Virus record (IMG/VR): IMGVR_UViG_2529292829_000010
Location: 1-33,790 of that record
DNA from: a virus
Taxonomy: Duplodnaviria; Heunggongvirae; Uroviricota; Caudoviricetes
Length of the DNA stretch: 33,790 nucleotides
Reading direction: 5' to 3' (one strand)
Shown: positions 1,307 through 16,397 of the stretch, one piece after another
How positions within the stretch are numbered: the first letter of the stretch is position 1
How the letters are laid out: every line of letters begins with the position of its first letter
Made by a program: the position numbers and the translations under genes
Notes under the pieces: generated by a model
What the model saw: only the letters and a program-made list of their open reading frames with translations
Database searches by the model: none
Told to the model about the DNA's origin: nothing

Positions 1307-3787
1307 TTAAAAATCAACCGGATTCGGGATCAGTTTTTGCCAGATTGCTGAAACGTATTTTGCCTGGTGACGGGCATCATCCAGCGCATTGTGGCGCACG
1401 CCTTCAAATGGAATAACGATTCTGGCATCAAAGTCGATTGTTTTTCCCAGCTCAACGATTGTGCGTACATCGCGATCGTTGTAGTAACGCCACGGGCAGG
1501 GGATCCCCTGCCGTTCGTATGAACGGCGCAAAATTGCGTTATCGAAAGTTGCACCATTACCCCATACCTGAACGAATTTTTCATCTGAGTATTCGTGGAT
1601 GAACTCCCGAAACCGCGAAAGGGCATCCTTCAGTTTTACCTGGTCTGTTAAAATGGCAGCTCTGGCTTCACTGGACTGCTTCAGCCACCATTCGATGGTT
1701 CCACCGTCAGGAACAGCCCCTGTATTCATTGCGTCAGTCAGACTGATAACGATATAAAATACTGGCCCGATTTCCCCTGTTTGTGGGTCGAAGAAAACCG
1801 CACCAATAACCACGATGGGCGCATTGGTGTTGGTTCCCATTGTTTCAAGGTCGATCATCAGGTGATACCACACTCTGCTGGTGGATGTGATAATGTGACG
1901 ACCGTTCACCGCAATTAAGGGAGCTGCCGTCTCGCCAGTTTCATTATCGCTGGCGTGGTCCTGAGCGCTGCCAGCATTCTCCTTGTGTGGATGTTCAGCG
2001 CCTTCCATTTCCTTCGGATCATTTTCCTGAACTTCAACCTGATTCTTGTCATCGAATGTTTCCTGGTATGTTGCGTCGCCCATCACCGCGCCACAATCAG
2101 GGCAGTTGCCGCCACCGATCTGACCGCAGGCGGTGCAGACTTTTTCCGCTTCCTGTTGTGCTACCGGTTCGGATTGTTTCGTTTCTGGCTCGTTTTGTTG
2201 CGTATTTGGGCTGTTTTGTTCCGCTTTCTGGTCGTTCTGTTCCGTTTCTTGCTGGTTCTGGTTCACAGTATCGCGGGTCTGGATCCCCTTAACCCATTTC
2301 GGATCATTCGGGTCGCTAATCCCTGCAACAAATTCACCACGTGATACTGCAAGCAGTTCATCGGCGTCAGGCTGGCTGATATTGGCTGCCTGCATAATTT
2401 TGTTTACTTCGTTAGCGGTAACTTTTACCGGCCCTGGTTGTGCGGTCGTGTCAGATGCACCAGTATTTTGTTGTGAACCTGAGTATGTACCGTTTTTGCG
2501 GGCGAAATATTCTTCTTTCGTGATTTCAGTAGCCCCTGCAGCCAGTGCCTTATCCAGACCAGAAAGTTTGTTTGCGCGACCGTATTTTTCGCCATCCTTG
2601 TCGGTGAAGAGGAAGTAGAACGGCCCCTCACGCTCTACAGATGGTTCGACTTCCACTTTGCATTCGGTTTTTTCGTTGTCCGGAATTGCCGTTTCCACTG
2701 CATCAGTTTCTGGTACTGGCGACGAGAGAGTATCAGTTGCGCTCTGATTTGTTCCTTCATCTTCAAACACGCCCTTTGTAGTCAGGTATTCAGTAATGTA
2801 TTTGTTCAGTGCCACAGGATCTTTGTGAATGTCGATCGGACGTTCACGGACAAGGCCAAAAATAGTCTGGCGGTCGTAGCGAAGGGCATCAGGCTGTTTG
2901 CGCATCGATGCCGAGATACGCTTCCAGTCTTCGCGGTCGTTGTCGATAACTTCATTTTTTGCCCAGCGATGGATGCTGCCGTCAATGTTTCCGGCATCCA
3001 CATCACCAGGCCAGAGAGCGTAGGCCAGTTCGTCATCCAGTGTTTTCCATGTCTGCTTGTATTCGCGATGAGTGGCAGCAATGACCGGGTTGATTTTTCC
3101 TGTTGAATTTTCAGTGTTCTGTTGATTGACTCTGGCGCGGGCAAGATCAACAACAGACGTGTATTTTCCGGTTTCCTTGCGTTCACCTTCGCGACGTTTT
3201 TTCCAGATGCGCATCTCTGCCTGAATTTCGGGCCATTTGGCACCAGGCTTACATTTATGCTTAACCCACCCGATGGCATGCAGCTTAAGCTCCGGATACA
3301 TGGCGTTAACTTCTGGCATTTTCATCAACGCTTCAACGATATGTCCGTCGAATGTTGCCATGTCTTCCTGCAACAATTCCTGTGCGCTAATAACCATATC
3401 AACGGTGATGTTTTCACATGTGTCGAACTTAACCATGACAGCGTTCTGTACTTCAGGGGCCAGCTTGTCAAAAGTGACGTTCATCGGATCTGATTCAGTC
3501 TCAACCGGAACAAAGGAAGCAGACTCCTCATCCCAGCGGTTTTCCTGCATATATTCAGCATCCCAGGAATCGAGGGCAGGGCGGGGTATACCGGGTTTAT
3601 CCTCGCAAACAAGAAATTTATAAGCGCAGTCCTGAGCAGCCGGATATTGCTCCAGGAATTGCCAGGTAAATTTGGCACGGGCGCGGCGTTCGTCACCGGC
3701 TTCAATGGCAGTGGCTACAGCAACTGCACCTTCTTCCTTTATTGCCTGTTCGTCCGGAATGGCAGCGCAAATAAAGACTTTACTCAT
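1307..3787 (-). CDS. Large early-left protein, 826 aa: unknown N-terminal domain, Cys4 zinc ribbon, acidic linker, C-terminal DnaQ-like DEDDh 3'-5' exonuclease
   Basis: ATG at 3785-3787 with GAGG upstream. Exo motifs in the C-terminus: MIDLETMG (Exo I), WGNGATFDNAIL (Exo II), HNALDDARHQAKY (Exo III). CTACGQIGGGNCPDCG zinc ribbon. Gln/Glu/Asn-rich low-complexity linker. Confidence 0.8.
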   Translation of the reverse strand: MSKVFICAAIPDEQAIKEEGAVAVATAIEAGDERRARAKFTWQFLEQYPAAQDCAYKFLVCEDKPGIPRPALDSWDAEYMQENRWDEESASFVPVETESDPMNVTFDKLAPEVQNAVMVKFDTCENITVDMVISAQELLQEDMATFDGHIVEALMKMPEVNAMYPELKLHAIGWVKHKCKPGAKWPEIQAEMRIWKKRREGERKETGKYTSVVDLARARVNQQNTENSTGKINPVIAATHREYKQTWKTLDDELAYALWPGDVDAGNIDGSIHRWAKNEVIDNDREDWKRISASMRKQPDALRYDRQTIFGLVRERPIDIHKDPVALNKYITEYLTTKGVFEDEGTNQSATDTLSSPVPETDAVETAIPDNEKTECKVEVEPSVEREGPFYFLFTDKDGEKYGRANKLSGLDKALAAGATEITKEEYFARKNGTYSGSQQNTGASDTTAQPGPVKVTANEVNKIMQAANISQPDADELLAVSRGEFVAGISDPNDPKWVKGIQTRDTVNQNQQETEQNDQKAEQNSPNTQQNEPETKQSEPVAQQEAEKVCTACGQIGGGNCPDCGAVMGDATYQETFDDKNQVEVQENDPKEMEGAEHPHKENAGSAQDHASDNETGETAAPLIAVNGRHIITSTSRVWYHLMIDLETMGTNTNAPIVVIGAVFFDPQTGEIGPVFYIVISLTDAMNTGAVPDGGTIEWWLKQSSEARAAILTDQVKLKDALSRFREFIHEYSDEKFVQVWGNGATFDNAILRRSYERQGIPCPWRYYNDRDVRTIVELGKTIDFDARIVIPFEGVRHNALDDARHQAKYVSAIWQKLIPNPVDF

Positions 3788-3866
3788 TTTGTTTTACCTC
3801 ATTACAGATTTAAGGGTGAACAAATCCCTGCCATTGCTGGCATATAAAAATGAAACTGGATATTAA

Positions 3867-4070
3867 TTACGGCGCTGTTTTTAATCCTGCCGGGATTTCG
3901 TTATTATCCATGCGAATAACTTTCTCGACCAGATAACAGTTACCAGGAATTTTCTGTTCTGCTGCGGCAGCCATACATTCTTTCATTGAACCATATATAC
4001 CAGTAACCACATCAACAGGTTCGCCAGTATTAAGAAAAACAGTCAGAGTGAGGGCAACAGCAGTCTTCAT
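3867..4070 (-). CDS. Small membrane protein, 67 aa, YdfD-like by position
   Basis: ATG at 4068-4070 preceded by AAGGA; overlaps the dicB stop (ATGA). N-terminal hydrophobic segment MKTAVALTLTVFL. Identity to YdfD not verified. Confidence 0.55.
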   Translation of the reverse strand: MKTAVALTLTVFLNTGEPVDVVTGIYGSMKECMAAAAEQKIPGNCYLVEKVIRMDNNEIPAGLKTAP

Positions 4071-4255
4071 TGCCAGCGTCCTTTTTGCATCAGGCGTAAA
4101 CGGGCCAGCATTGAAACAATGCATATTTTATTTAATAACTCCCGTTCGTGTTTTCTCTTGTTAATGGCATCTTCAGTAAATACAGGGTTACTGATAGTGA
4201 CACCAATTTCAAAACAACCTTCAGACGTATTAACGTTTGGTAATAACGTTTCCAT
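4067..4255 (-). CDS. dicB: Cell-division inhibitor DicB, 62 aa
   Basis: ATG at 4253-4255 preceded by GAGGA. Protein METLLPNVNTSEGCFEIGVTISNPVFTEDAINKRKHERELLNKICIVSMLARLRLMQKGRWQ matches my recollection of E. coli DicB in length and sequence. Lies immediately downstream of a DicF-like RNA on the same strand. Confidence 0.8.
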   Translation of the reverse strand: METLLPNVNTSEGCFEIGVTISNPVFTEDAINKRKHERELLNKICIVSMLARLRLMQKGRWQ

Positions 4256-4424
4256 TATCGCGTCCTCAACAATGAATTTTGTGATGCGGTGCCTGGTGCC
4301 TCCAGGTGACGTTAACCAGTTAACAATTAACGCCGGATACAGAGAATCCACCCATAACACTGTTTTTGGTTTTAACTGTTCCGCGTGCGCTTAGCCGCAT
4401 TCACCGCATCATAAAATTCACTTT

Positions 4425-4482
4425 AAAAAGGGCGGCAGAGCAGTCACGGAGTAAAACTGATACCGCCAAACGTCACCAGAAA
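4425..4482 (-). ncRNA. dicF: DicF-like small regulatory RNA (ftsZ translation inhibitor)
   Basis: Minus-strand transcript 5'-UUUCUGGUGACGUUUGGCGGUAUCAGUUUUACUCCGUGACUGCUCUGCCGCCCUUUUU-3' matches my recollection of DicF, with a GC-rich 3' stem and U-run. Sits directly upstream of dicB, as in the Qin dicB operon. Confidence 0.75.
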
Positions 4483-5837: not shown

Positions 5838-6485
5838 TTATAGGTTGAACTGTACACCTTTTGCTACGGCAACAATTTTACACTCTGGCGTAAGCAAGGA
5901 TGATTGATAGCGCGGATTGAGAGGACTTAAATACACAAGTTTTCCATCAATAACTAATTTTTTTATAGTCATAGACGGTTCATTTGTAAGAGGATCTGGA
6001 ACTATTACAGCGACGATACTGCCATTTTTATAACTTTCTCCTGGTCTTAGGATCACAGTGGCACCAACTGGGATACTTGGCGACCCTGAGGGGTTATGCA
6101 TAGTGTCATCAGGCATTGAAACGGCAAAATCACCTTCCACTACATCAAAGAATGTGGTGATCCTATCGACATTTCCCATTGTTTTCTCTCCTTCTAAGAT
6201 TAGGAAAGAAATCGCGTCACCCCACGAAAGGTAGGGGATCTTGGTGCCTGGATTGTTCTGCACAAAAGATAGTTCAGGAGACGATACTCCATACAGGAGA
6301 TAGGACTCAGTAGTTCCTAATGCTTGGGCTAACTTACTTAGAGCTTTGCTGCCGGGTTCGTTTAGATCTTTCTCCCAGTACCCTATAGTAACCCCAGTCA
6401 CGCCTGAAAGCTTACCCAGCTCTACTTGGGTGAGTCCCTTATCTTTTCTGAGTTTCTTAAGCCTGATGCCAAGGCTTTCCATCAT
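5838..6485 (-). CDS. cI: CI-type prophage repressor: HTH_XRE N-domain plus S24/LexA-like autopeptidase C-domain, 215 aa
   Basis: HTH LTQVELGKLSGVTGVTIGYWE. C-domain AVSMPDDT and TIKKLVIDGKLVYLSPLNPRY parallel lambda CI NSMTAPT and [21 protein letters not shown] (Ser/Lys dyad). Divergent from the cro-like gene. Confidence 0.9.
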   Translation of the reverse strand: MMESLGIRLKKLRKDKGLTQVELGKLSGVTGVTIGYWEKDLNEPGSKALSKLAQALGTTESYLLYGVSSPELSFVQNNPGTKIPYLSWGDAISFLILEGEKTMGNVDRITTFFDVVEGDFAVSMPDDTMHNPSGSPSIPVGATVILRPGESYKNGSIVAVIVPDPLTNEPSMTIKKLVIDGKLVYLSPLNPRYQSSLLTPECKIVAVAKGVQFNL

Positions 6486-6511
6486 TTTCTCCCGCGAGTT
6501 GAATATAAATT

Positions 6512-6568
6512 ATTTTAGATTGCATTGACCTAAAAAAAATTATCCTGTAATCTAAAAATACTTAGATT
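6512..6568 (+). promoter_or_regulatory. PR-like rightward promoter and OR operators
   Basis: -35 TTGACC (6525-6530), 17-nt spacer, -10 TAATCT (6548-6553). 20-bp palindrome AATCTAAAAATACTTAGATT (6549-6568) overlaps the -10. A second imperfect palindrome TTTTAGATTGCATTGACCTAAAA lies at 6512-6535. Confidence 0.55.
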
Positions 6569-6581
6569 TTAGGAGGGTGAA

Positions 6582-6809
6582 ATGCGAGTTGATGAACTTG
6601 TTCAGTTTTTTGGCTCTGTTCAGAGGGTCGCTGATTTTTATGGGATAACCCGCGAAGCTATTTACATGTGGCGTAAGCGCCCCGGTGAAATAGTTCCGAA
6701 AGGGAGAGCTGCGGAAGCTGCTGCATACTCCAAGGGAAAATTATCTTTGGACCCAGAGCTTTACAAAAAGAAGGATACCACTCAGAGCGAAAGGAAGAGT
6801 GATTCATGA
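6582..6809 (+). CDS. cro: Cro-like HTH regulator (YdaS-like), 75 aa
   Basis: AGGAGGG RBS. HTH VADFYGITREAIYMW. First rightward gene, divergent from cI. Confidence 0.8.
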   Translation: MRVDELVQFFGSVQRVADFYGITREAIYMWRKRPGEIVPKGRAAEAAAYSKGKLSLDPELYKKKDTTQSERKSDS

Positions 6810-7231
6810 AAATCAAGCATGAACACATCCGCATGGCGATGAATGCCTGGGCGCATCCGGACGGCGAGAAAGTACCGGCTGCAGAGATTACCAAAGCGTA
6901 TTTCGAGCTGGGAATGACGTTCCCGGAACTGTATGACGACAGCCATCCGGAAGCCCTGGCTCGCAATACCCAGAAAATTTTCCGCTGGGTAGAGAAAGAC
7001 ACCCCTGATGCGGTTAAAAAAATTCAGGCGTTGTTACCGGCGATCGAAAAAGCAATGCCACCTTTGCTGGTGGCCCGAATGCGCAGCCACAGTTCAGCCT
7101 GGTTTCGGGAGCTGGTGGAGACGCGGGAACGGCTGGTGAGAGACGCTGATGATTTTGTCGCAGTGGCGATCGCTGGTTTCAACCAGATGAATCGTGGTGG
7201 CCCTGCAGGAAATATTGTGGCTGTGCATTGA
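6806..7231 (+). CDS. CII-like / YdaT-family regulator, 141 aa
   Basis: ATGA start-stop overlap with cro. Size and position match YdaT of Rac-type immunity regions. Family assignment is from memory of that architecture, not from sequence identity. Confidence 0.55.
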   Translation: MKIKHEHIRMAMNAWAHPDGEKVPAAEITKAYFELGMTFPELYDDSHPEALARNTQKIFRWVEKDTPDAVKKIQALLPAIEKAMPPLLVARMRSHSSAWFRELVETRERLVRDADDFVAVAIAGFNQMNRGGPAGNIVAVH

Positions 7232-7302
7232 CTCGCAATATTCATACCGGATCACTTCCGGCAATTTGTGAGTAAAAAGATTCGGTATCAAAAGAGGTGA
7301 GT

Positions 7303-8343
7303 ATGGCTAACGCCTGGCTCAGATTATGGCATGACATGCCAAACGATCCTAAGTGGCGAACAATTTCCAGGTTGTCAGGACAGCCAATCGCAACAGTGAT
7401 GGCTGTGTATATCCACCTTCTGGTGAGTGCGTCACGAAATGTCACGACATGTCACGGTGTGTCACTACGTGGTCACATTGATGTCACGGCGGAAGATTTA
7501 GCAAGTGCGCTTGATGTGACGGAAGAAGTAATTGATTCAATTTTACAGGCAATGCAGGGGCGGGTACTTGATGGAGATTTGATCAGTGGATGGGAAAAAC
7601 GCCAGGTACTGAAAGAGGACAATGGCAACGTTTCACAAACCGCGAAATCCCCGGCAGAGCGCAAGAGAGCGCAGCGCGAGAGGGAAAAATTACGAAAACA
7701 GAATGAGGGGGCGCGCGACGAGTCACGCATCTGTCACGACATGTCACGACGAGTCACGACAGATAAAGATACAGATAAAGAATTAAACCCCACACATAAC
7801 GCGCGCGTGCGAGAGAGTGCTCCTGCCAGTGAGGCAAATGGCGTGCCGTTGCAAACAGCGGAACCTGATTACCTGGAAGGCCTGAGCGAACCCATCGGGA
7901 AATTTCCGATGACCGATGGCTGGCATCCGTCGCCGGATTTTCGACGACGGGCTGCGCTGTGGGGCGTGGCTCTTCCTGAGCCGGAATTTACACCAGCTGA
8001 ACTTTCCGCCTTCCGGGACTACTGGGCAGCGGAGGGCAAAGTGTTCACGCAGGTTCAGTGGGAGCAGAAATTCGCCCGTCACGTAAATCACGTCAGGGCG
8101 CAGGCTAAACCAGTCAGCAAGGGGGTAAACCATGCAGCAGCACCAGGTGGCACCGCATCACGGGCAGTTCAGGAAATTCGGGCAGCACGTGAGCAGTGGG
8201 AACGTGAAAACGGATTTATCAGCGACGGAAACGGCCTGGAAGCTGTGGGAACTCATGGGGGAGGTTTATTCGAACCGCTGGACCCAGAAGAACGGGGCCG
8301 CACCTTCGAAGCTCTGGATTGCACAGATTGGCGCGATGACTGA
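7303..8343 (+). CDS. Replication initiator (O-like), about 346 aa, with internal iterons
   Basis: ATG at 7303 six nt after AAAGAGG (GTG at 7297 is an alternative). Lies directly upstream of the P homolog. Contains two arrays of GTCAC direct repeats and an AT-rich tract. Confidence 0.7.
   Translation: MANAWLRLWHDMPNDPKWRTISRLSGQPIATVMAVYIHLLVSASRNVTTCHGVSLRGHIDVTAEDLASALDVTEEVIDSILQAMQGRVLDGDLISGWEKRQVLKEDNGNVSQTAKSPAERKRAQREREKLRKQNEGARDESRICHDMSRRVTTDKDTDKELNPTHNARVRESAPASEANGVPLQTAEPDYLEGLSEPIGKFPMTDGWHPSPDFRRRAALWGVALPEPEFTPAELSAFRDYWAAEGKVFTQVQWEQKFARHVNHVRAQAKPVSKGVNHAAAPGGTASRAVQEIRAAREQWERENGFISDGNGLEAVGTHGGGLFEPLDPEERGRTFEALDCTDWRDD
7429..7489. repeat. Iteron array 1: six GTCAC-core repeats at about 10-11 bp spacing
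   Basis: GTCAC at 7431, 7441, 7451, 7461, 7472 and 7483 inside the O-like ORF. Confidence 0.7.
7721..7792. repeat. Iteron array 2 (four GTCACG repeats) plus adjacent AT-rich tract: candidate origin
   Basis: GTCAC at 7722, 7733, 7743 and 7753, followed by AGATAAAGATACAGATAAAGAATTAAA (7761-7790). This resembles the lambda ori arrangement inside O. Confidence 0.65.
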
Positions 8344-8797
8344 GCAGCAAATCCGACAGGTCTGCCGCCAGTGCATGGACCGCTGCCGGGCGGGTGAAAC
8401 ATGGCCTCCGGACCTGGCTGAGTTTGTGGCACTGATTTCGGAGAGTGGGGCAAATCCATTTGGTCTGACGGTGGATGCTGTGATGGAGGAGTACCGTCGC
8501 TGGCGCAATGAGTCCTGGCGATACGACGGAAGCGATAAATACCCATGGACTCAGCCTGTGCTGTATCACATTTGCCTCGAGATGCGTTCAAAGGGGATTG
8601 AGCGCCAGATGACCGAAGGGGAATTAAAACGGCTTGCAGAACGGCAGCTGACGAAATGGGCAAAGCATGTTAGTAACGGCCTGAGCGTTCCGCCAGTCCG
8701 GCGACAACTGGCGGCACCCAAACGCCCGTCGGGACCAACGCCAATTGAGTTACTGAAACAGGAATATGAACGCCGGAAAGCGGCTGGGTTTGTTTGA
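8132..8797 (+). CDS. Replication protein P-like helicase loader, 221 aa
   Basis: C-terminal similarity to lambda P: YPW..., [14 protein letters not shown] versus [24 protein letters not shown] versus SPGQFVAW. ATG at 8132 has AAGGGGG upstream. Overlaps the O-like gene by 212 nt in another frame; later starts at 8255 or 8337 are possible. Confidence 0.75.
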
Positions 8798-8831
8798 GTT
8801 GAGAAGTAATTTTTACCGGGAGGAAATTTTA

Positions 8832-9593
8832 ATGGAGACCGTTTTTGACGCACTGAAAGCGATGGGAAAAGCTACGTCGGTAGAACTGGCTGAGCGACTT
8901 GATATCAGTCGTGAAGAAGTGCTGAACGAACTATGGGAACTGAAAAAGGCTGGTTTCGTTGATAAAAGCGCGTACACCTGGCGTGTGGCTGATAACAACG
9001 TTCAGCAGGAACAGCCAGCGCCAGAAGAACAGCCGGAAGAAACCTCCACGGCGACAGTAGCGAAAATCTCAGAGTGCGATTTAACCGCGACGATTGAACA
9101 ACGCGGACCACAAACGGCTGATGAGCTGGCTACATTGTTTGGTACCACATCACGCAAAGTGGCTTCAACGCTGGCAATGGCAATCAGCAAAGGCCGTCTG
9201 ATTCGTGCTAATCAGGACGGTAAATTTCGTTACTGTATGCCGGGCGATAATTTACCAGCAGAGCCGAAAGCAGCATCGGTAGCGGAAACTGATGGTAAAG
9301 CCTTTCCTCAGCCTGCATGCGTTGCGTTACCAGTACAGGAAGCTGCAACACAGGAAGATATTAAAACAGAGACTGTGGCGGACATTGTGCAGTCGCTGCC
9401 ATCGTTTACTGAAACGCGAGCGGATGACCTGGTTTTACCATCGCTGCATATGGCAAACCGCGAACTGCGTCGGGCGAAAAATCATGTCCAGAAGTGGGAG
9501 CGAGTCTGCGCCGCGCTGCGGGAGCTGAACAAGCACCGGGATATTGTACGACAGATTACTGATTCTTCCCGCCATGTTGCATCGGAAAAGTGA
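8832..9593 (+). CDS. Hypothetical protein with two winged-helix-like segments and a C-terminal helical region, 253 aa
   Basis: ATG at 8832 with GGGAGG upstream. Segments [30 protein letters not shown] and [32 protein letters not shown] look like wHTH. Confidence 0.65.
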
Positions 9594-10586: not shown

Positions 10587-11273
10587 ATGACCACAATAAA
10601 TACGTTTATGACAGTTGCTGATTTCAAACGGCCTAAATTGGAGCTCCCAAACGGGGCAAACAAACTACTACTGCACTCTTGCTGTGCTCCATGTTCCGGT
10701 GAAGTGATGGAGGCGCTTCAGGCCTCGGGAATCGACTACACCATCTTTTTCTACAACCCGAACATTCATCCTCAGAAAGAGTATTTAATTCGTAAGGATG
10801 AGAATATTCGCTTTGCTGAACAACACGGCGTGCAGTTTATCGATGCTGATTACGACACAGACAACTGGTTTGAACGTGCCAAAGGAATGGAATGGGAGCC
10901 CGAGAGGGGGATCCGTTGTACCATGTGTTTTGACATGCGTTTTGAGCGGACAGCGTTGTACGCTGCTGAAAATGGTTTCAGTGTGATCAGCAGTTCGCTG
11001 GGCATTTCACGCTGGAAAAATATGCAGCAGGTTAACGACTGTGGGCGGCGAGCCGTCGCGCATTATCCGGGAATGGTGTACTGGGATTATAACTGGCGCA
11101 AGCAGGGCGGCTCGTCCCGTATGATTGAAATCAGCAAGCGCGAAAAATTCTATCAGCAGGAATATTGTGGCTGTGTGTATTCTCTGCGCGATACCAATCT
11201 ACACCGCAAATCTCAGGGACGCCCTCTTATCAAAATTGGTCAACTCCACTACGGTAAAGAAGAGAAGGAGTGA
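10587..11273 (+). CDS. QueH-like (DUF208) epoxyqueuosine reductase family protein, 228 aa
   Basis: Motif [11 protein letters not shown] near the N-terminus, plus RCTMCFD and YCGCVY Cys clusters, as I recall for DUF208/QueH. Preceded by two stem-loops and an AT-rich leader. Weak SD, so start is uncertain. Confidence 0.7.
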
Positions 11274-11399
11274 TTTTATGGATCACCTTTCTGATTGATT
11301 TCATATTGGCGAGGTAGCAGGAGTTAAGTAGAATTGCTGCGGGTGCTTGAGGCTATCTGTCTCAGGCATGAACACCAAAAGGCAGATAGAGAAAAGCCC

Positions 11400-11462
11400 C
11401 AGTTAACATTACGCGTCCTGCAAGACGCTTAACATTAATCTGAGGCCATATCTATGCGACAC
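11400..11462 (-). ncRNA. Putative Sok-like antisense RNA
   Basis: Minus-strand promoter-like TTGACC (plus 11491-11496) with a weak -10 near 11466-11471. Antisense to the mok-like start at 11454. Hairpin GCGUCUUGCAGGACGC (plus 11412-11427) near the predicted 3' end. Boundaries inferred. Confidence 0.35.
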
Positions 11463-11513
11463 ATAGAGATTAGCCTCTTACGGACCGAAAGGTCAAGGAG
11501 AAGCAGGCTATGA
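11454..11513 (+). CDS. mok-like leader ORF, 19 codons, translationally coupled to hok
   Basis: ATG at 11454; its TGA stop (11511-11513) overlaps the hok ATG (11510-11512). Confidence 0.35.
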   Translation: MRHIEISLLRTERSRRSRL

Positions 11514-15048: not shown

Positions 15049-16098
15049 ATGGCTAATACTGTAAAAATATCCAGTTGTGAGTTAATCAACGCTGATTGTC
15101 TGGAATTTATCCAGACCTTACCGGAAAATTCTGTCGATCTGATAGTCACAGACCCGCCATACTTTAAAGTGAAGCCCGAGGGCTGGGATAACCAGTGGAA
15201 GGGCGACGATGATTACCTGAAATGGCTGAATCAGTGTCTGGCGCAGTTCTGGCGGGTACTGAAGCCCGCAGGAAGTCTTTACCTGTTCTGTGGTCATCGC
15301 CTGGCATCTGACACCGAAATCATGATGCGTCAGCGCTTTAATGTGCTGAACCACATTATCTGGGCGAAGCCGTCAGGGCGCTGGAACGGGTGCAACAAGG
15401 AAAGCCTGCGGGCGTATTTCCCGGCAACAGAGCGCATTCTGTTTGCAGAACATTATCAGGGGCCATACCAGCCCAAAAATGACGGCTATGAGGCAAAGGG
15501 GCGTGAGCTAAAACAGCACGTCATGGCCCCGCTGATTTCTTACTTTCGTGATGCGCGTGAATCACTGGGAATAACGTCAAAACAGATAGCGGAAGCCACC
15601 GGAAAGAAAAACATGGCTTCGCACTGGTTTGGTACCAGTCAGTGGCAATTACCGAACGAGGGTGATTACAACAAATTGCAGGCGTTGTTTGCGCGTGTTG
15701 CGGCAGAAAAGCATCAGCGAGGGGAACTGGAAAAGCCACACCACCAGCTGGTCAGCACATACAGTGAACTGAACCGGCAATATGCCAGCCTGCTGGAAGA
15801 GTATAAATCTTTGCGGCGTTATTTTTCCGTATCGGCTGCCGTTCCGTATACGGATGTCTGGACGCATAAATCCGTGCAGTTTTATCCGGGCAAACATCCC
15901 TGTGAAAAACCGGCAGATATGTTGCGGCAGATAATTGAGGCCAGCAGTCACCCTGGTGATTTGGTTGCGGATTTTTTTATGGGTTCAGGTTCAACGGTAA
16001 AAGCGGCGATGGCACTGGGGCGTTGTGCGATTGGTGTTGAGCTGGAGACCGGACGTTTTGAACAGACAGTCAGGGAAGTTCAGGATTTAATCGTTTGA
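15049..16098 (+). CDS. DNA methyltransferase, beta-class amino-MTase (probably N6-adenine), 349 aa
   Basis: Motif IV IVTDPPYF near the N-terminus and motif I DFFMGSGST near the C-terminus (IV-TRD-I order). No adjacent restriction endonuclease. Confidence 0.85.
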   Translation: MANTVKISSCELINADCLEFIQTLPENSVDLIVTDPPYFKVKPEGWDNQWKGDDDYLKWLNQCLAQFWRVLKPAGSLYLFCGHRLASDTEIMMRQRFNVLNHIIWAKPSGRWNGCNKESLRAYFPATERILFAEHYQGPYQPKNDGYEAKGRELKQHVMAPLISYFRDARESLGITSKQIAEATGKKNMASHWFGTSQWQLPNEGDYNKLQALFARVAAEKHQRGELEKPHHQLVSTYSELNRQYASLLEEYKSLRRYFSVSAAVPYTDVWTHKSVQFYPGKHPCEKPADMLRQIIEASSHPGDLVADFFMGSGSTVKAAMALGRCAIGVELETGRFEQTVREVQDLIV

Positions 16099-16148
16099 AA
16101 CGGATGAGATTGCAGAATTAATTACGCACCATTATTATTCTGCTCCCG

Positions 16149-16224
16149 GCCCTTTAGCTCAGTGGTGAGAGCGAGCGACTCATAATCGCCAGGTCGCTGG
16201 TTCAAATCCAGCAAGGGCCACCAT
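16149..16224 (+). tRNA. tRNA-Ile2 (anticodon CAU, lysidine type; ileZ/ileX-like)
   Basis: Cloverleaf: acceptor GGCCCTT/AAGGGCC, D-arm GCTC-AGTGGTGA-GAGC, anticodon loop CUCAUAA (CAT at 16182-16184), T-loop TTCAAAT, encoded CCA. Close to E. coli ileX as I recall it. Confidence 0.85.
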
Positions 16225-16320: not shown

Positions 16321-16397
16321 GCGTTGTTAGCTCAGCCGGACAGAGCAATTGCCTTCTAAGCAATCGGTCACTGGTTCGAATCCAGTACAACGCGCCA
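16321..16397 (+). tRNA. tRNA-Arg (anticodon UCU, decodes AGA; argO-like)
   Basis: Acceptor GCGTTGT/ACAACGC, anticodon stem ATTGC/GCAAT with loop CTTCTAA (TCT at 16355-16357), T-loop TTCGAAT, encoded CCA. Confidence 0.85.

What the first reader, a model, noticed from the sequence alone, without database searches (positions are those of the whole stretch)
7429..7792. Two iteron arrays and an AT-rich tract inside the O-like gene: probable replication origin
Six GTCAC-core repeats at helical spacing (7431-7487) and four more GTCACG repeats (7722-7757), followed by an AT-rich stretch, all lie inside the initiator ORF. This reproduces the lambda ori layout (iterons plus AT-rich region within O), but as two separated clusters.
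Basis: seen in the sequence. Interest (0 to 1): 0.5.

Follow-up and report, generated by a model that had tools for sequence, protein, structure and literature searches.

The report
Prophage replication origin inside initiator gene
Two clusters of a short repeated DNA word plus an easily melted A-rich stretch, all inside a prophage replication-initiator gene, are almost certainly that phage's origin of replication; it is a familiar kind of origin, but one not yet described for this widespread initiator family.

Summary
GTCAC(G) occurs six times at 10-11-nt spacing (7431-7488) and four times (7722-7758), with one inverted copy (7516-7520). The second array abuts an A-rich tract (7759-7799). All lie inside the initiator gene 7303-8343.

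Comparative data show a selected DNA element, not chance or a peptide repeat. In 25 distant beta- and gamma-proteobacterial genes the same word sits at the same gene offsets. Synonymous sites inside it are frozen: relative entropy 0.09 against 0.85 elsewhere, p=2.6e-7. Sister lineages carry a different word (GTAACG or CGAACGC) at the same two places, the same word in both arrays.

The arrays travel with the N-terminal winged-helix domain. The C-terminal DnaT-like domain and the lambda-P-like loader gene are swapped as a separate module, with the crossover in the A-rich tract.

Best explanation: an iteron-plus-unwinding-element origin bound by the gene's own product. Array 2 plus the A-rich tract is probably the core and array 1 an accessory cluster.

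The layout works like lambda ori, SPP1 oriL and pSK41 RepA_N, but the protein is not a lambda O homologue. I found no experimental work on this family. Verdict: real and sensible, a new member of a known kind with a conserved two-cluster twist. Interest is moderate.

The parts
7303..8343 (+). Replication initiator gene (346 aa). It encodes an N-terminal winged-helix domain, a basic helix, a disordered linker and a C-terminal DnaT-like ssDNA-binding domain.
7431..7488 (+). Iteron array 1: six GTCAC(G) words at 10/10/10/11/11-nt spacing. It encodes the loop (aa 43-62) between helices 1 and 2 of the winged-helix domain, read in all three frames.
   Evidence: Positions. The same gene offsets (128/138/148/159) recur in about 25 distant genes. 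Synonymous sites are frozen. The loop placement comes from the AF2 model. The copy number is 4, 5 or 6 among relatives.
7516..7520 (-). A single inverted iteron core (GTGAC on +, GTCAC on -), 33 nt downstream of array 1. It encodes the D-V-T turn between helices 2 and 3.
   Evidence: Position. It is present in 21 of 25 GTCAC-class genes and in none of 11 CGAACGC-class genes. The V72 third-position entropy is 0.77, against about 1.9 for other valines.
7722..7758 (+). Iteron array 2: four GTCACG words at 11/10/10-nt spacing. It encodes part of the disordered inter-domain linker. A degenerate fifth position lies at 7712-7717.
   Evidence: Positions. The array is conserved with 3-5 copies at offsets of about 388-417. 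Where the A-rich tract was located correctly, the last copy always starts 8 nt before AGATAA. L083 and 48 of 80 close relatives carry the fifth copy.
7759..7799 (+). A-rich, purine-skewed tract containing ACAGATAAAGA twice. It is the putative DNA-unwinding element and encodes the D/K/T-rich linker.
   Evidence: GC is 0.30 and AT skew is +0.5 to +0.57. It is the least stable 40-mer between 6810 and 8800 and ranks in the 99th percentile window-wide. GATAAA/GATACA repeats follow array 2 in all three iteron classes and in Rac ydaU. The third positions of T153, D154 and T157 are invariant.
7764..7782 (.). Mosaic crossover. Upstream DNA matches Tritos/Evi-type phages, and downstream DNA matches Rac/PPompW-type ydaU-ydaV.
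   Evidence: Megablast hits stop or start at query positions 512-533. The three-way alignment shows the switch inside AAAGATACAGAT...AAAGA.
7903..8106 (+). Coding region of the DnaT-like ssDNA-binding domain (aa 201-268).
   Evidence: Pfam PF17948 at 4.3e-18. NCBIfam DnaT at 2e-27, below the equivalog cutoff. The model is 53-58% identical to DnaT 84-153 in structure searches.
8336..8797 (+). Lambda-P-like helicase-loader gene. Its start overlaps the initiator's stop codon (ATGA).
   Evidence: Pfam Phage_lambda_P at 1.9e-16. PHROG 109, P-like helicase loader, at 6e-63. It is co-inherited with the initiator's C-terminal half.

Best explanation
The segment from about 7431 to 7800 is the prophage's origin of replication, embedded in the gene of the protein that recognises it.

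Proposed mechanism:
1. The N-terminal winged-helix domain of the initiator binds the GTCACG words. The words are direct repeats one helical turn apart, so the bound proteins line up head-to-tail on one face of the DNA.
2. Array 2 (7722-7758) abuts the A-rich tract and forms the core. The nucleoprotein complex built there destabilises the tract at 7759-7799.
3. The C-terminal DnaT-like domain holds the exposed single strand and, together with the P-like loader encoded next door, brings in the host DnaB helicase.
4. Array 1 (7431-7488) and the inverted copy (7516) lie about 240 bp upstream. They are an accessory cluster of the same sites, either enlarging or looping into the complex, or titrating initiator for control.

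Shown here: the sequence anatomy; DNA-level purifying selection on the words; the concerted identity of the word in both arrays across lineages; co-inheritance of the arrays with the N-domain; the protein folds; and the neighbouring loader gene.

Inferred only: binding, melting, helicase loading, and the division of labour between the two arrays.
For: 1. The clustering is far beyond chance.

2. The architecture is deeply conserved. GTCAC sits at gene offsets 128/138/148/159 and about 388/398/408/417, with GTGAC at 192, in about 25 genes from beta- and gamma-proteobacteria. The flanks hold 0-3 copies per 2.5 kb.

3. Selection acts on the DNA, not the peptide.
- The same 6-mer is read in three frames, giving S-R, V-T and G-H.
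- Third-position relative entropy is 0.09 inside the words (n=11 codons) against 0.85 outside (n=41), Mann-Whitney p=2.6e-7.

4. Specificity classes exist. Sister lineages carry GTAACG or CGAACGC at the same two places. In 35 of 50 genes the top 5-mer of array 1 is also the top 5-mer of array 2, and several of the others use overlapping registers of one word. Erwinia L104 has GTCACG in both arrays where its close relatives L102 and L105 have GTAACG.

5. Array 2 always abuts GATAAA/GATACA repeats at a fixed 8-nt offset. That tract is the least stable DNA in the replication genes.

6. Copy number varies in frame among close relatives: (array 1, array 2) = 6+5, 6+4, 4+5 and 5+3. Lambda (4 iterons) and Stx phages (6 iterons) differ in the same way (PMC7466680).

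7. The system is modular. The arrays travel only with the N-domain. C-terminal domains and downstream genes differ: a P-like loader here, a DnaB-like helicase in P. aeruginosa, another type in Tritos.

9. The genomic context is the replication slot of a lambdoid early-right operon: cI, cro, ydaT-like, initiator, P-like.
Against: - No experiment on this initiator family was found, so binding and origin activity are unproven.
- The arrays are physically inside the N-domain coding sequence, so co-inheritance with that domain is partly automatic.
- The gap between the arrays varies (219-247 nt, once 319) with no strict helical phasing. This does not favour a rigid looped complex.
- Some distant relatives lack array 1 (L110, L111, L121, L122, L126, L132), so array 1 is not essential to the family.
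- The A-rich tract is only moderately AT-rich (GC 0.30), and intergenic regions of the window are less stable.
- No DnaA box lies near the region, so any host-initiator input is unknown.
- The fold similarity of the N-domain to DnaD and RepA_N is no stronger than its similarity to Crp-type regulators.
Confidence: 0.8

Rival explanations
1. Both arrays bind the initiator, but array 1 is a negative-control element rather than part of the origin. It would titrate initiator, pair with array 2 ('handcuffing') or block transcription of its own gene. This would resemble incA of P1 or the second iteron cluster of F.
For: - Array 1 is separated from the A-rich tract by about 270 bp, and several relatives that keep array 2 and the tract lack it.
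- Its copy number varies between 4, 5 and 6.
- It lies early in the initiator's own coding sequence, where bound protein could impede transcription.
- The P1 and F analogy rests on established plasmid biology and was not tested here.
Against: - Phage lytic replication is usually not copy-number limited.
- Extra upstream iterons in Stx phages are needed for replication rather than inhibiting it (PMC7466680).
- Nothing in the sequence distinguishes activation from inhibition.
Confidence: 0.3
2. The arrays are cis sites for another function, or for another protein than the initiator. Candidates are a partition centromere, a packaging or recombination site, or an operator for one of the neighbouring HTH proteins (the DUF1627 protein or the YdaT-like protein).
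For: - Arrays of 10-11-nt direct repeats in two blocks also occur in plasmid centromeres. This is general knowledge and was not tested here.
- HTH proteins are encoded on both sides of the initiator.
Against: - In Tritos and in the P. aeruginosa element the neighbouring genes are different, yet the arrays are unchanged. The only DNA shared between the window and Tritos is the N-half of the initiator gene.
- No partition genes lie nearby.
- The arrays abut an A-rich tract and precede a helicase loader or helicase gene in every context examined.
Confidence: 0.07
3. The repeats have no DNA-level function. They would be slippage products or a peptide repeat in tolerant loop and linker regions of the protein.
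For: Both arrays encode a low-confidence loop (aa 46-62) or a disordered linker (aa 137-195) in the model. Their copy number changes in frame.
Against: - The identical 6-mer is read in three different frames, so no peptide repeat exists.
- Synonymous positions inside it are invariant across genes whose other synonymous sites are saturated.
- The word changes in concert in both arrays between lineages.
Confidence: 0.02

Closest known systems
Bacteriophage lambda ori in gene O (and Stx-phage variants with six iterons)
   Same: - The origin lies inside the initiator gene.
- A block of initiator-binding repeats is followed directly by an A/T-rich tract that encodes the inter-domain linker.
- Iteron number varies in frame between relatives.
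- The N-terminal domain plus ori and the C-terminal domain plus P behave as exchangeable modules.
- A P-type loader gene follows (PMC7466680).
   Different: - There is no sequence relationship to O (no Phage_rep_O hit).
- The iterons here are 10-11-nt-period direct repeats with a 6-nt core and no detected internal dyad symmetry. Lambda's iterons are longer (size and symmetry are general knowledge).
- There are two arrays about 240 bp apart plus an inverted copy, rather than one block.
- The C-terminal domain is DnaT-like.
Staphylococcal RepA_N plasmid initiators (pSK41 Rep)
   Same: - A conserved N-terminal DnaD-like winged-helix domain binds repeats located centrally within its own gene.
- The ori-encoded central peptide is a dispensable linker.
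- The C-terminal domain is variable and engages host replisome proteins.
- Natural hybrids swap the NTD plus ori as a unit (PMC5703833).
   Different: - This element is a proteobacterial prophage, not a plasmid of Gram-positive bacteria.
- No significant sequence similarity was found.
- A second array sits inside the DNA-binding-domain coding region.
- The C-terminal domain is DnaT-like and is paired with a lambda-P-like loader rather than a DnaG-binding domain.
SPP1 oriL in gene 38 (replisome organiser G38P) and Phage_rep_org_N proteins
   Same: - Direct repeats plus an adjacent AT-rich unwinding element are embedded in the origin-binding protein's gene.
- A helicase-loader gene follows.
[quoted passage not shown]
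- NCBI names this E. coli protein 'phage replisome organizer'.
- One family member (P0092) carries the same C-terminal Phg_2220_C domain as G38P.
   Different: - Similarity to the replisome-organiser N-domain models is below threshold: TIGR01714 at 18.4 bits against a 49.8-bit cutoff, and PF09681 at E=0.12.
- hhalign against G38P finds nothing.
- SPP1 has a second origin 13 kb away, not a second array within the gene.
Rac prophage YdaU/YdaV module (oriJ)
   Same: The C-terminal half of the initiator, the A-rich linker and the P-like gene are 91-97% identical to Rac-type ydaU-ydaV. Rac is reported to possess an active origin, oriJ (PMC3945230).
   Different: The Rac YdaU N-domain is DUF1376, not this family. 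It has no GTCAC arrays, only an inverted pair TGTTCAAACA/TGTTTGAACA before the linker.

Membership tests
Lambda O-type initiator / ori-lambda | The initiator belongs to Pfam Phage_rep_O (lambda O N-terminal domain). | tested here: not met
   No PF04492 hit appears even at E<=10 for the N-terminal 160 aa or the full protein.
Lambda O-type initiator / ori-lambda | Iterons followed by an A/T-rich tract lie inside the initiator gene, with a P-type loader gene downstream. | tested here: met
   Array 2 is at 7722-7758, the A-rich tract at 7759-7799 and the P-like gene at 8336-8797.
Lambda O-type initiator / ori-lambda | The iterons are long (about 18-19 bp) with internal inverted symmetry and are bound by O dimers (general knowledge). 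| tested here: not met
   The repeats have a 10-11-nt period and only a 6-nt conserved core. No dyad symmetry within a unit was detected.
Phage replisome organiser (Phage_rep_org_N, PF09681 / TIGR01714) | The N-terminal domain matches the family model above its curated cutoff. | tested here: inconclusive
   TIGR01714 aligns end to end (aa 5-131 to positions 1-118 of 119) but scores only 18.4 bits against a 49.8-bit cutoff, E=0.0019. PF09681 gives E=0.12 for the Tritos homologue. phrog_4880 'replisome organizer' gives 1.7e-5. hhalign against SPP1 G38P is negative.
Phage replisome organiser (Phage_rep_org_N, PF09681 / TIGR01714) | The origin (repeats plus an AT-rich element) is embedded in the organiser's own gene. 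| tested here: met
   Shown. For the SPP1 reference case see PMC5737612.
DnaT (primosomal protein I) ssDNA-binding domain | The C-terminal domain matches Pfam DnaT and has the DnaT 84-153 fold. | tested here: met
Iteron-type replication origin (general) | The repeats are specifically bound by the cognate initiator. | not testable with these tools
   This is inferred only, from concerted word changes in both arrays and co-inheritance with the N-domain.
Iteron-type replication origin (general) | The segment supports autonomous, initiator-dependent replication. | not testable with these tools
   No experiment is available. Circular 50.9-kb P. aeruginosa records carry the same module but may simply be phage genomes.
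Iteron-type replication origin (general) | The repeats are under selection as DNA. | tested here: met
   In the synonymous-site test, relative entropy is 0.09 inside the words against 0.85 outside, p=2.6e-7.

The most novel reading that the evidence does not exclude
This initiator family uses a conserved two-part origin. One iteron array is written into the loop of the very DNA-binding domain that reads it, and a second array sits next to the unwinding element. The two would be bridged by the initiator into one looped complex.

The three word classes (GTCACG, GTAACG, CGAACGC) would then define mutually compatible replication specificities. These would let several such prophages coexist and replicate independently in one cell. 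New specificities would arise by concerted change of protein and both arrays, and would be spread by recombination in the shared A-rich tract.
Probability: 0.3. Interest if true: 0.6.

Novelty: new member of a known kind. Interest (0 to 1): 0.42.

Why it matters
This initiator module is common. About 12% of complete E. coli genomes hold at least 80% of this exact gene pair, and nearly half hold part of it. The N-domain family also occurs in prophages across beta- and gamma-proteobacteria, including P. aeruginosa and Bordetella.

Its origin has apparently never been mapped. The comparative data here give a base-pair-level prediction of the origin. They also give three natural specificity classes for swap experiments, and a defined recombination joint that explains how replication modules are reshuffled among lambdoid prophages.

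Practical consequences:
- Prophage annotation could improve. RefSeq calls this protein 'pyocin large subunit' in some genomes.
- Replication compatibility of co-resident prophages could be predicted.
- The module could supply compact, orthogonal phage-derived replicons.

Conceptually it adds no new principle. Origins embedded in initiator genes are well known.

Tried and rejected
1. Peptide repeat or slippage. Rejected, because the word is read in three frames and its synonymous sites are frozen.

2. Known RNA element. Rfam finds nothing in 6500-9000; its only hits in the window are DicF, sok and two tRNAs.

3. DnaA boxes near the origin. There are none with one mismatch or fewer, and the window-wide count is at chance level.

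4. Strict helical phasing between the two arrays. Gaps of 219, 227, 229, 238-240, 247 and 319 nt show no fixed phase, so I make no looping-phase claim.

5. Homology to SPP1 G38P by profile comparison. Negative.

6. Homology to lambda O. Negative.

7. Literature on this family's origin. Searches on Eru replication types, oriJ/ydaU/ydaV and replisome organiser plus iterons found nothing specific. The Eru paper does not discuss iterons or DnaT-domain initiators.

8. Well-studied phages carrying this N-domain. tblastn found only recently sequenced, uncharacterised phages.

9. Promoter and terminator scan of 6300-9000. Nothing above the shuffle expectation.

10. Plasmid records as natural proof of autonomy. 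Ambiguous, because the matches are large plasmids or probable phage circles.

11. Specificity residues in the protein. Class-specific differences concentrate in the segment after the wing (aa 102-130), including a 9-residue insertion in the GTCAC class. With these data I could not separate this from shared ancestry.

Full report
**The observation**

- GTCAC starts on the + strand at 7431, 7441, 7451, 7461, 7472 and 7483, with spacing 10, 10, 10, 11, 11.
- It starts again at 7722, 7733, 7743 and 7753, with spacing 11, 10, 10.
- Eight of the ten copies are GTCACG.

Outside the 6-nt core the 10-11-nt units share little.

Clustering is far beyond chance. In 500 second-order Markov simulations of the window, no 60-nt span held more than 3 copies (6 observed). 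No 400-nt span held more than 5 (10 observed).

The second array runs straight into ACAGATAAAGATACAGATAAAGAATTAAACC.
- GC is 0.30 over 7760-7799, with a strong A-over-T skew.
- It is the least stable 40-mer between 6810 and 8800, and in the 99th percentile of the window.

**Context**

The region is the early-right operon of a lambdoid prophage.

| Coordinates | Strand | Gene |
|---|---|---|
| 5838-6485 | - | S24/HTH cI-like repressor |
| 6582-6809 | + | P22-type Cro |
| 6806-7231 | + | YdaT-like protein |
| 7303-8343 | + | 346-aa initiator ORF that contains all the repeats |
| 8336-8797 | + | lambda-P-like loader; its ATG overlaps the initiator stop codon |
| 8766-9593 | + | DUF1627 protein |

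- The initiator's only Pfam hit is the DnaT ssDNA-binding domain, aa 201-268.
- PHROGs place the initiator in 'replication initiation protein' families.
- The loader is PHROG 109, 'P-like helicase loader'.

**The protein**

I built an AlphaFold2 model from a 59-sequence alignment.

| Residues | Feature in the model |
|---|---|
| 2-11, 16-25, 29-45 | helices |
| 46-62 | low-confidence loop, encoded by array 1 |
| 63-70, 74-84 | helices |
| 85-96 | hairpin; together with the flanking helices, a winged helix |
| 117-134 | basic helix |
| 137-195 | disordered linker, encoded by array 2 and the A-rich tract |
| from about 201 | confident C-terminal domain |

- Sequence models of the phage replisome-organiser N-domain align end to end but below threshold: TIGR01714 at 18.4 bits against a 49.8-bit cutoff, and PF09681 at E=0.12.
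- There is no lambda O (Phage_rep_O) signal.
- There is no profile similarity to SPP1 G38P.

**The gene is a mosaic whose joint is the A-rich tract**

- Against sequenced phages, window 7250-7781 matches Tritos, Evi and vB_Eco-type phages at about 86% identity.
- Window 7767-8400 matches Rac-SA53 ydaU-ydaV, PPompW phages and an Actinobacillus phage at 91-97%.
- A three-way alignment puts the switch inside AAAGATACAGAT...AAAGA, at 7764-7782.
- Tritos shares the N-half with both arrays but has a different C-terminal domain and no P-like gene.
- Rac YdaU shares the linker, the DnaT domain and the P-like gene. Its N-domain is DUF1376, and it has no GTCAC arrays.

So the arrays belong to the N-domain module, and the A-rich tract is common to both modules.

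**Comparative test**

The N-domain family is large. I found 812 proteins at E<=1e-3, 584 viral contig matches and 52 loci in species-representative genomes.

In about 25 of the genome loci GTCAC sits at identical offsets in the gene.
- These loci include Entomomonas, Aquitalea, Rahnella, Bordetella, Serratia, Gilvimarinus, Pseudomonas, Chromobacterium, Acidovorax, Pseudothauera and Castellaniella.
- The offsets are 128/138/148/159, then GTGAC at 192, then three to five copies near 388-417.
- Their flanks hold 0-3 copies per 2.5 kb.
- A P. aeruginosa 50.9-kb circular element shows the same 4 + inverted + 4 pattern.

The two-cluster layout is therefore the family norm, not a local oddity. The window and E. 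albertii have an expanded array 1 of six copies.

Among 80 close relatives the copy numbers (array 1, array 2) are 6+5 (48 loci), 6+4 (25), 4+5 (4) and 5+3 (2). One further locus has a truncated ORF without array 2. This in-frame variation resembles lambda with 4 iterons against Stx phages with 6 (PMC7466680).

**Selection acts on the DNA**

Because the units are 10-11 nt long, the same 6-mer is read in three frames. It encodes S-R, V-T and G-H.

I made a codon alignment of 23 GTCAC-class genes whose synonymous sites are otherwise saturated (mean pairwise third-position identity 0.46).
- Third-position relative entropy of conserved codons is 0.09 inside the words (n=11).
- It is 0.85 outside (n=41).
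- Mann-Whitney p=2.6e-7.
- V47, T48, G57, V61, S148 and V151 use a single codon in all 23 genes. Other invariant V, T, G and P codons use all four.
- The bases around AGATAAAGA are likewise frozen at synonymous positions.

This excludes chance, slippage and peptide-level explanations.

**Specificity classes**

Sister lineages of the same protein family carry a different word at the same two places.

| Word | Loci |
|---|---|
| GTAACG | L102, L105, L113, L115, L119 |
| CGAACGC | L109, L112, L114, L116, L117, L118, L120, L124, L129, L133 and others |

- Within a genome the word is the same in both arrays.
- In 35 of 50 genes the most frequent 5-mer of the array-1 region is also the most frequent in the array-2 region, with at least 3 copies each. 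Most of the remainder use overlapping registers of one word.
- Erwinia L104 has GTCACG in both arrays where its close relatives L102 and L105 have GTAACG.
- The inverted copy is class-specific: 21 of 25 GTCAC-class genes have it, and 0 of 11 CGAACGC-class genes do.
- In all classes array 2 is followed, at a fixed 8-nt offset where measurable, by GATAAA/GATACA repeats.

Two separate arrays changing in concert is what one expects if one protein reads both.

A few distant relatives keep the A-rich tract and a weak or normal array 2 but lack array 1 (L110, L111, L121, L122). I take array 2 plus the tract to be the core and array 1 to be accessory.

**Mechanism: shown and inferred**

Shown:
- the anatomy;
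- DNA-level selection on the words;
- concerted identity of the word in both arrays;
- module boundaries;
- the protein folds;
- the neighbouring loader gene.

Inferred:
- The winged-helix N-domain binds the words head-to-tail on one DNA face.
- The complex on array 2 melts the adjacent A-rich tract.
- The DnaT-like domain captures single-stranded DNA and, with the P-like protein, recruits host DnaB.
- Array 1 and the inverted copy enlarge or loop into the complex, or act in control.

The gap between the arrays (219-247 nt, once 319) is not helically phased, so I do not claim a rigid loop. No DnaA box lies nearby.

**Comparison with known systems**

Functionally this origin belongs to the class embedded in the initiator's own gene. 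Three reference cases define that class.
- Lambda ori in gene O (PMC7466680).
- SPP1 oriL in gene 38, where the 356-bp oriL region drives origin-dependent replication in vitro (PMC5737612; PMC6316719).
- pSK41 RepA_N. Its DnaD-like N-domain binds Rep boxes in the centre of rep, the ori-encoded peptide is a dispensable linker, and natural hybrids swap the NTD plus ori (PMC5703833).

By membership it is not a lambda O protein. It is at best a sub-threshold relative of replisome-organiser N-domains. It does carry a genuine DnaT-type C-terminal domain.

Rac's oriJ is reported active (PMC3945230), but it shares only the C-terminal half and the linker with this gene.

I found no paper on the origin of this N-domain family, and no classical phage carries the domain.

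**Verdict**

It is a new, uncharacterised member of a well-known kind of origin. Its distinctive and deeply conserved feature is a second iteron array written into the DNA-binding domain's own coding sequence. Natural word classes invite specificity-swap experiments. Interest is moderate.

Noticed in passing
window 10587-11273 (+): A QueH (epoxyqueuosine reductase) homologue is encoded inside the prophage's early region (Pfam 1.6e-65). This is an unusual tRNA-modification gene for a lambdoid prophage.
   Followed up: no
window 11341-11512 (+) and 4430-4481 (-): Rfam finds a sok antitoxin RNA (106.7 bits), implying a hok/sok-type toxin-antitoxin locus. It also finds a DicF sRNA (76.7 bits).
   Followed up: no
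window 16148-16223 and 16321-16397 (+): tRNA-Met (CAT) and tRNA-Arg (TCT) genes lie downstream of a DNA methylase gene at 15049-16098. I did not examine what the following ORFs encode.
   Followed up: no
window 1307-3787 (-): An 826-aa ORF has only a C-terminal Rv2179c-like 3'-5' exoribonuclease domain (aa 642-816). The N-terminal 640 residues have no Pfam match.
   Followed up: no
E. coli RefSeq genomes, hits H36, H37, H39 and H42: In several complete E. coli genomes the same initiator gene is annotated 'pyocin large subunit', a likely misannotation. Elsewhere it is annotated 'DnaT-like ssDNA-binding domain-containing protein' or 'phage replisome organizer'.
   Followed up: no
L002 (Rac-SA53) 2441-2473: Rac-type ydaU has a DUF1376 N-domain and lacks GTCAC arrays. 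It has a perfect 10-nt inverted pair, TGTTCAAACA/TGTTTGAACA, just upstream of the same A-rich linker. This may be the Rac-type initiator site.
   Followed up: partly
L136 (P. aeruginosa CP137943.1) 3501-4400; also CP124671.1: Two 50.9-kb circular P. aeruginosa records filed as plasmids carry the same N-domain with 4 + inverted + 4 GTCAC words and the A-rich tract. A DnaB-like helicase gene follows instead of a P-like loader. They may be episomal phage genomes.
   Followed up: partly
L104 (Erwinia phyllosphaerae) against L102 (Pantoea) and L105 (Enterobacter hormaechei), gene offsets 130-230 and 405-455: Closely related genes differ in the iteron word, GTCACG against GTAACG, at both arrays simultaneously. 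In L105 the inverted site reads GTTAC, through a synonymous valine codon change.
   Followed up: partly
window 7799-7808: A GC palindrome, ACGCGCGCGT, follows the A-rich tract immediately. It belongs to the Rac-type C-terminal module and is also present in Rac-SA53 but absent from Tritos.
   Followed up: partly
window 7651-7704 (aa 117-134) and the aligned region in L083-L133: The segment after the winged helix differs by iteron class. The GTCAC class has a 9-residue insertion and the sequence SAAERKRxQRER. The other classes have SAERAKxWRE. This segment is a candidate specificity determinant, but the pattern is confounded by shared ancestry.
   Followed up: partly
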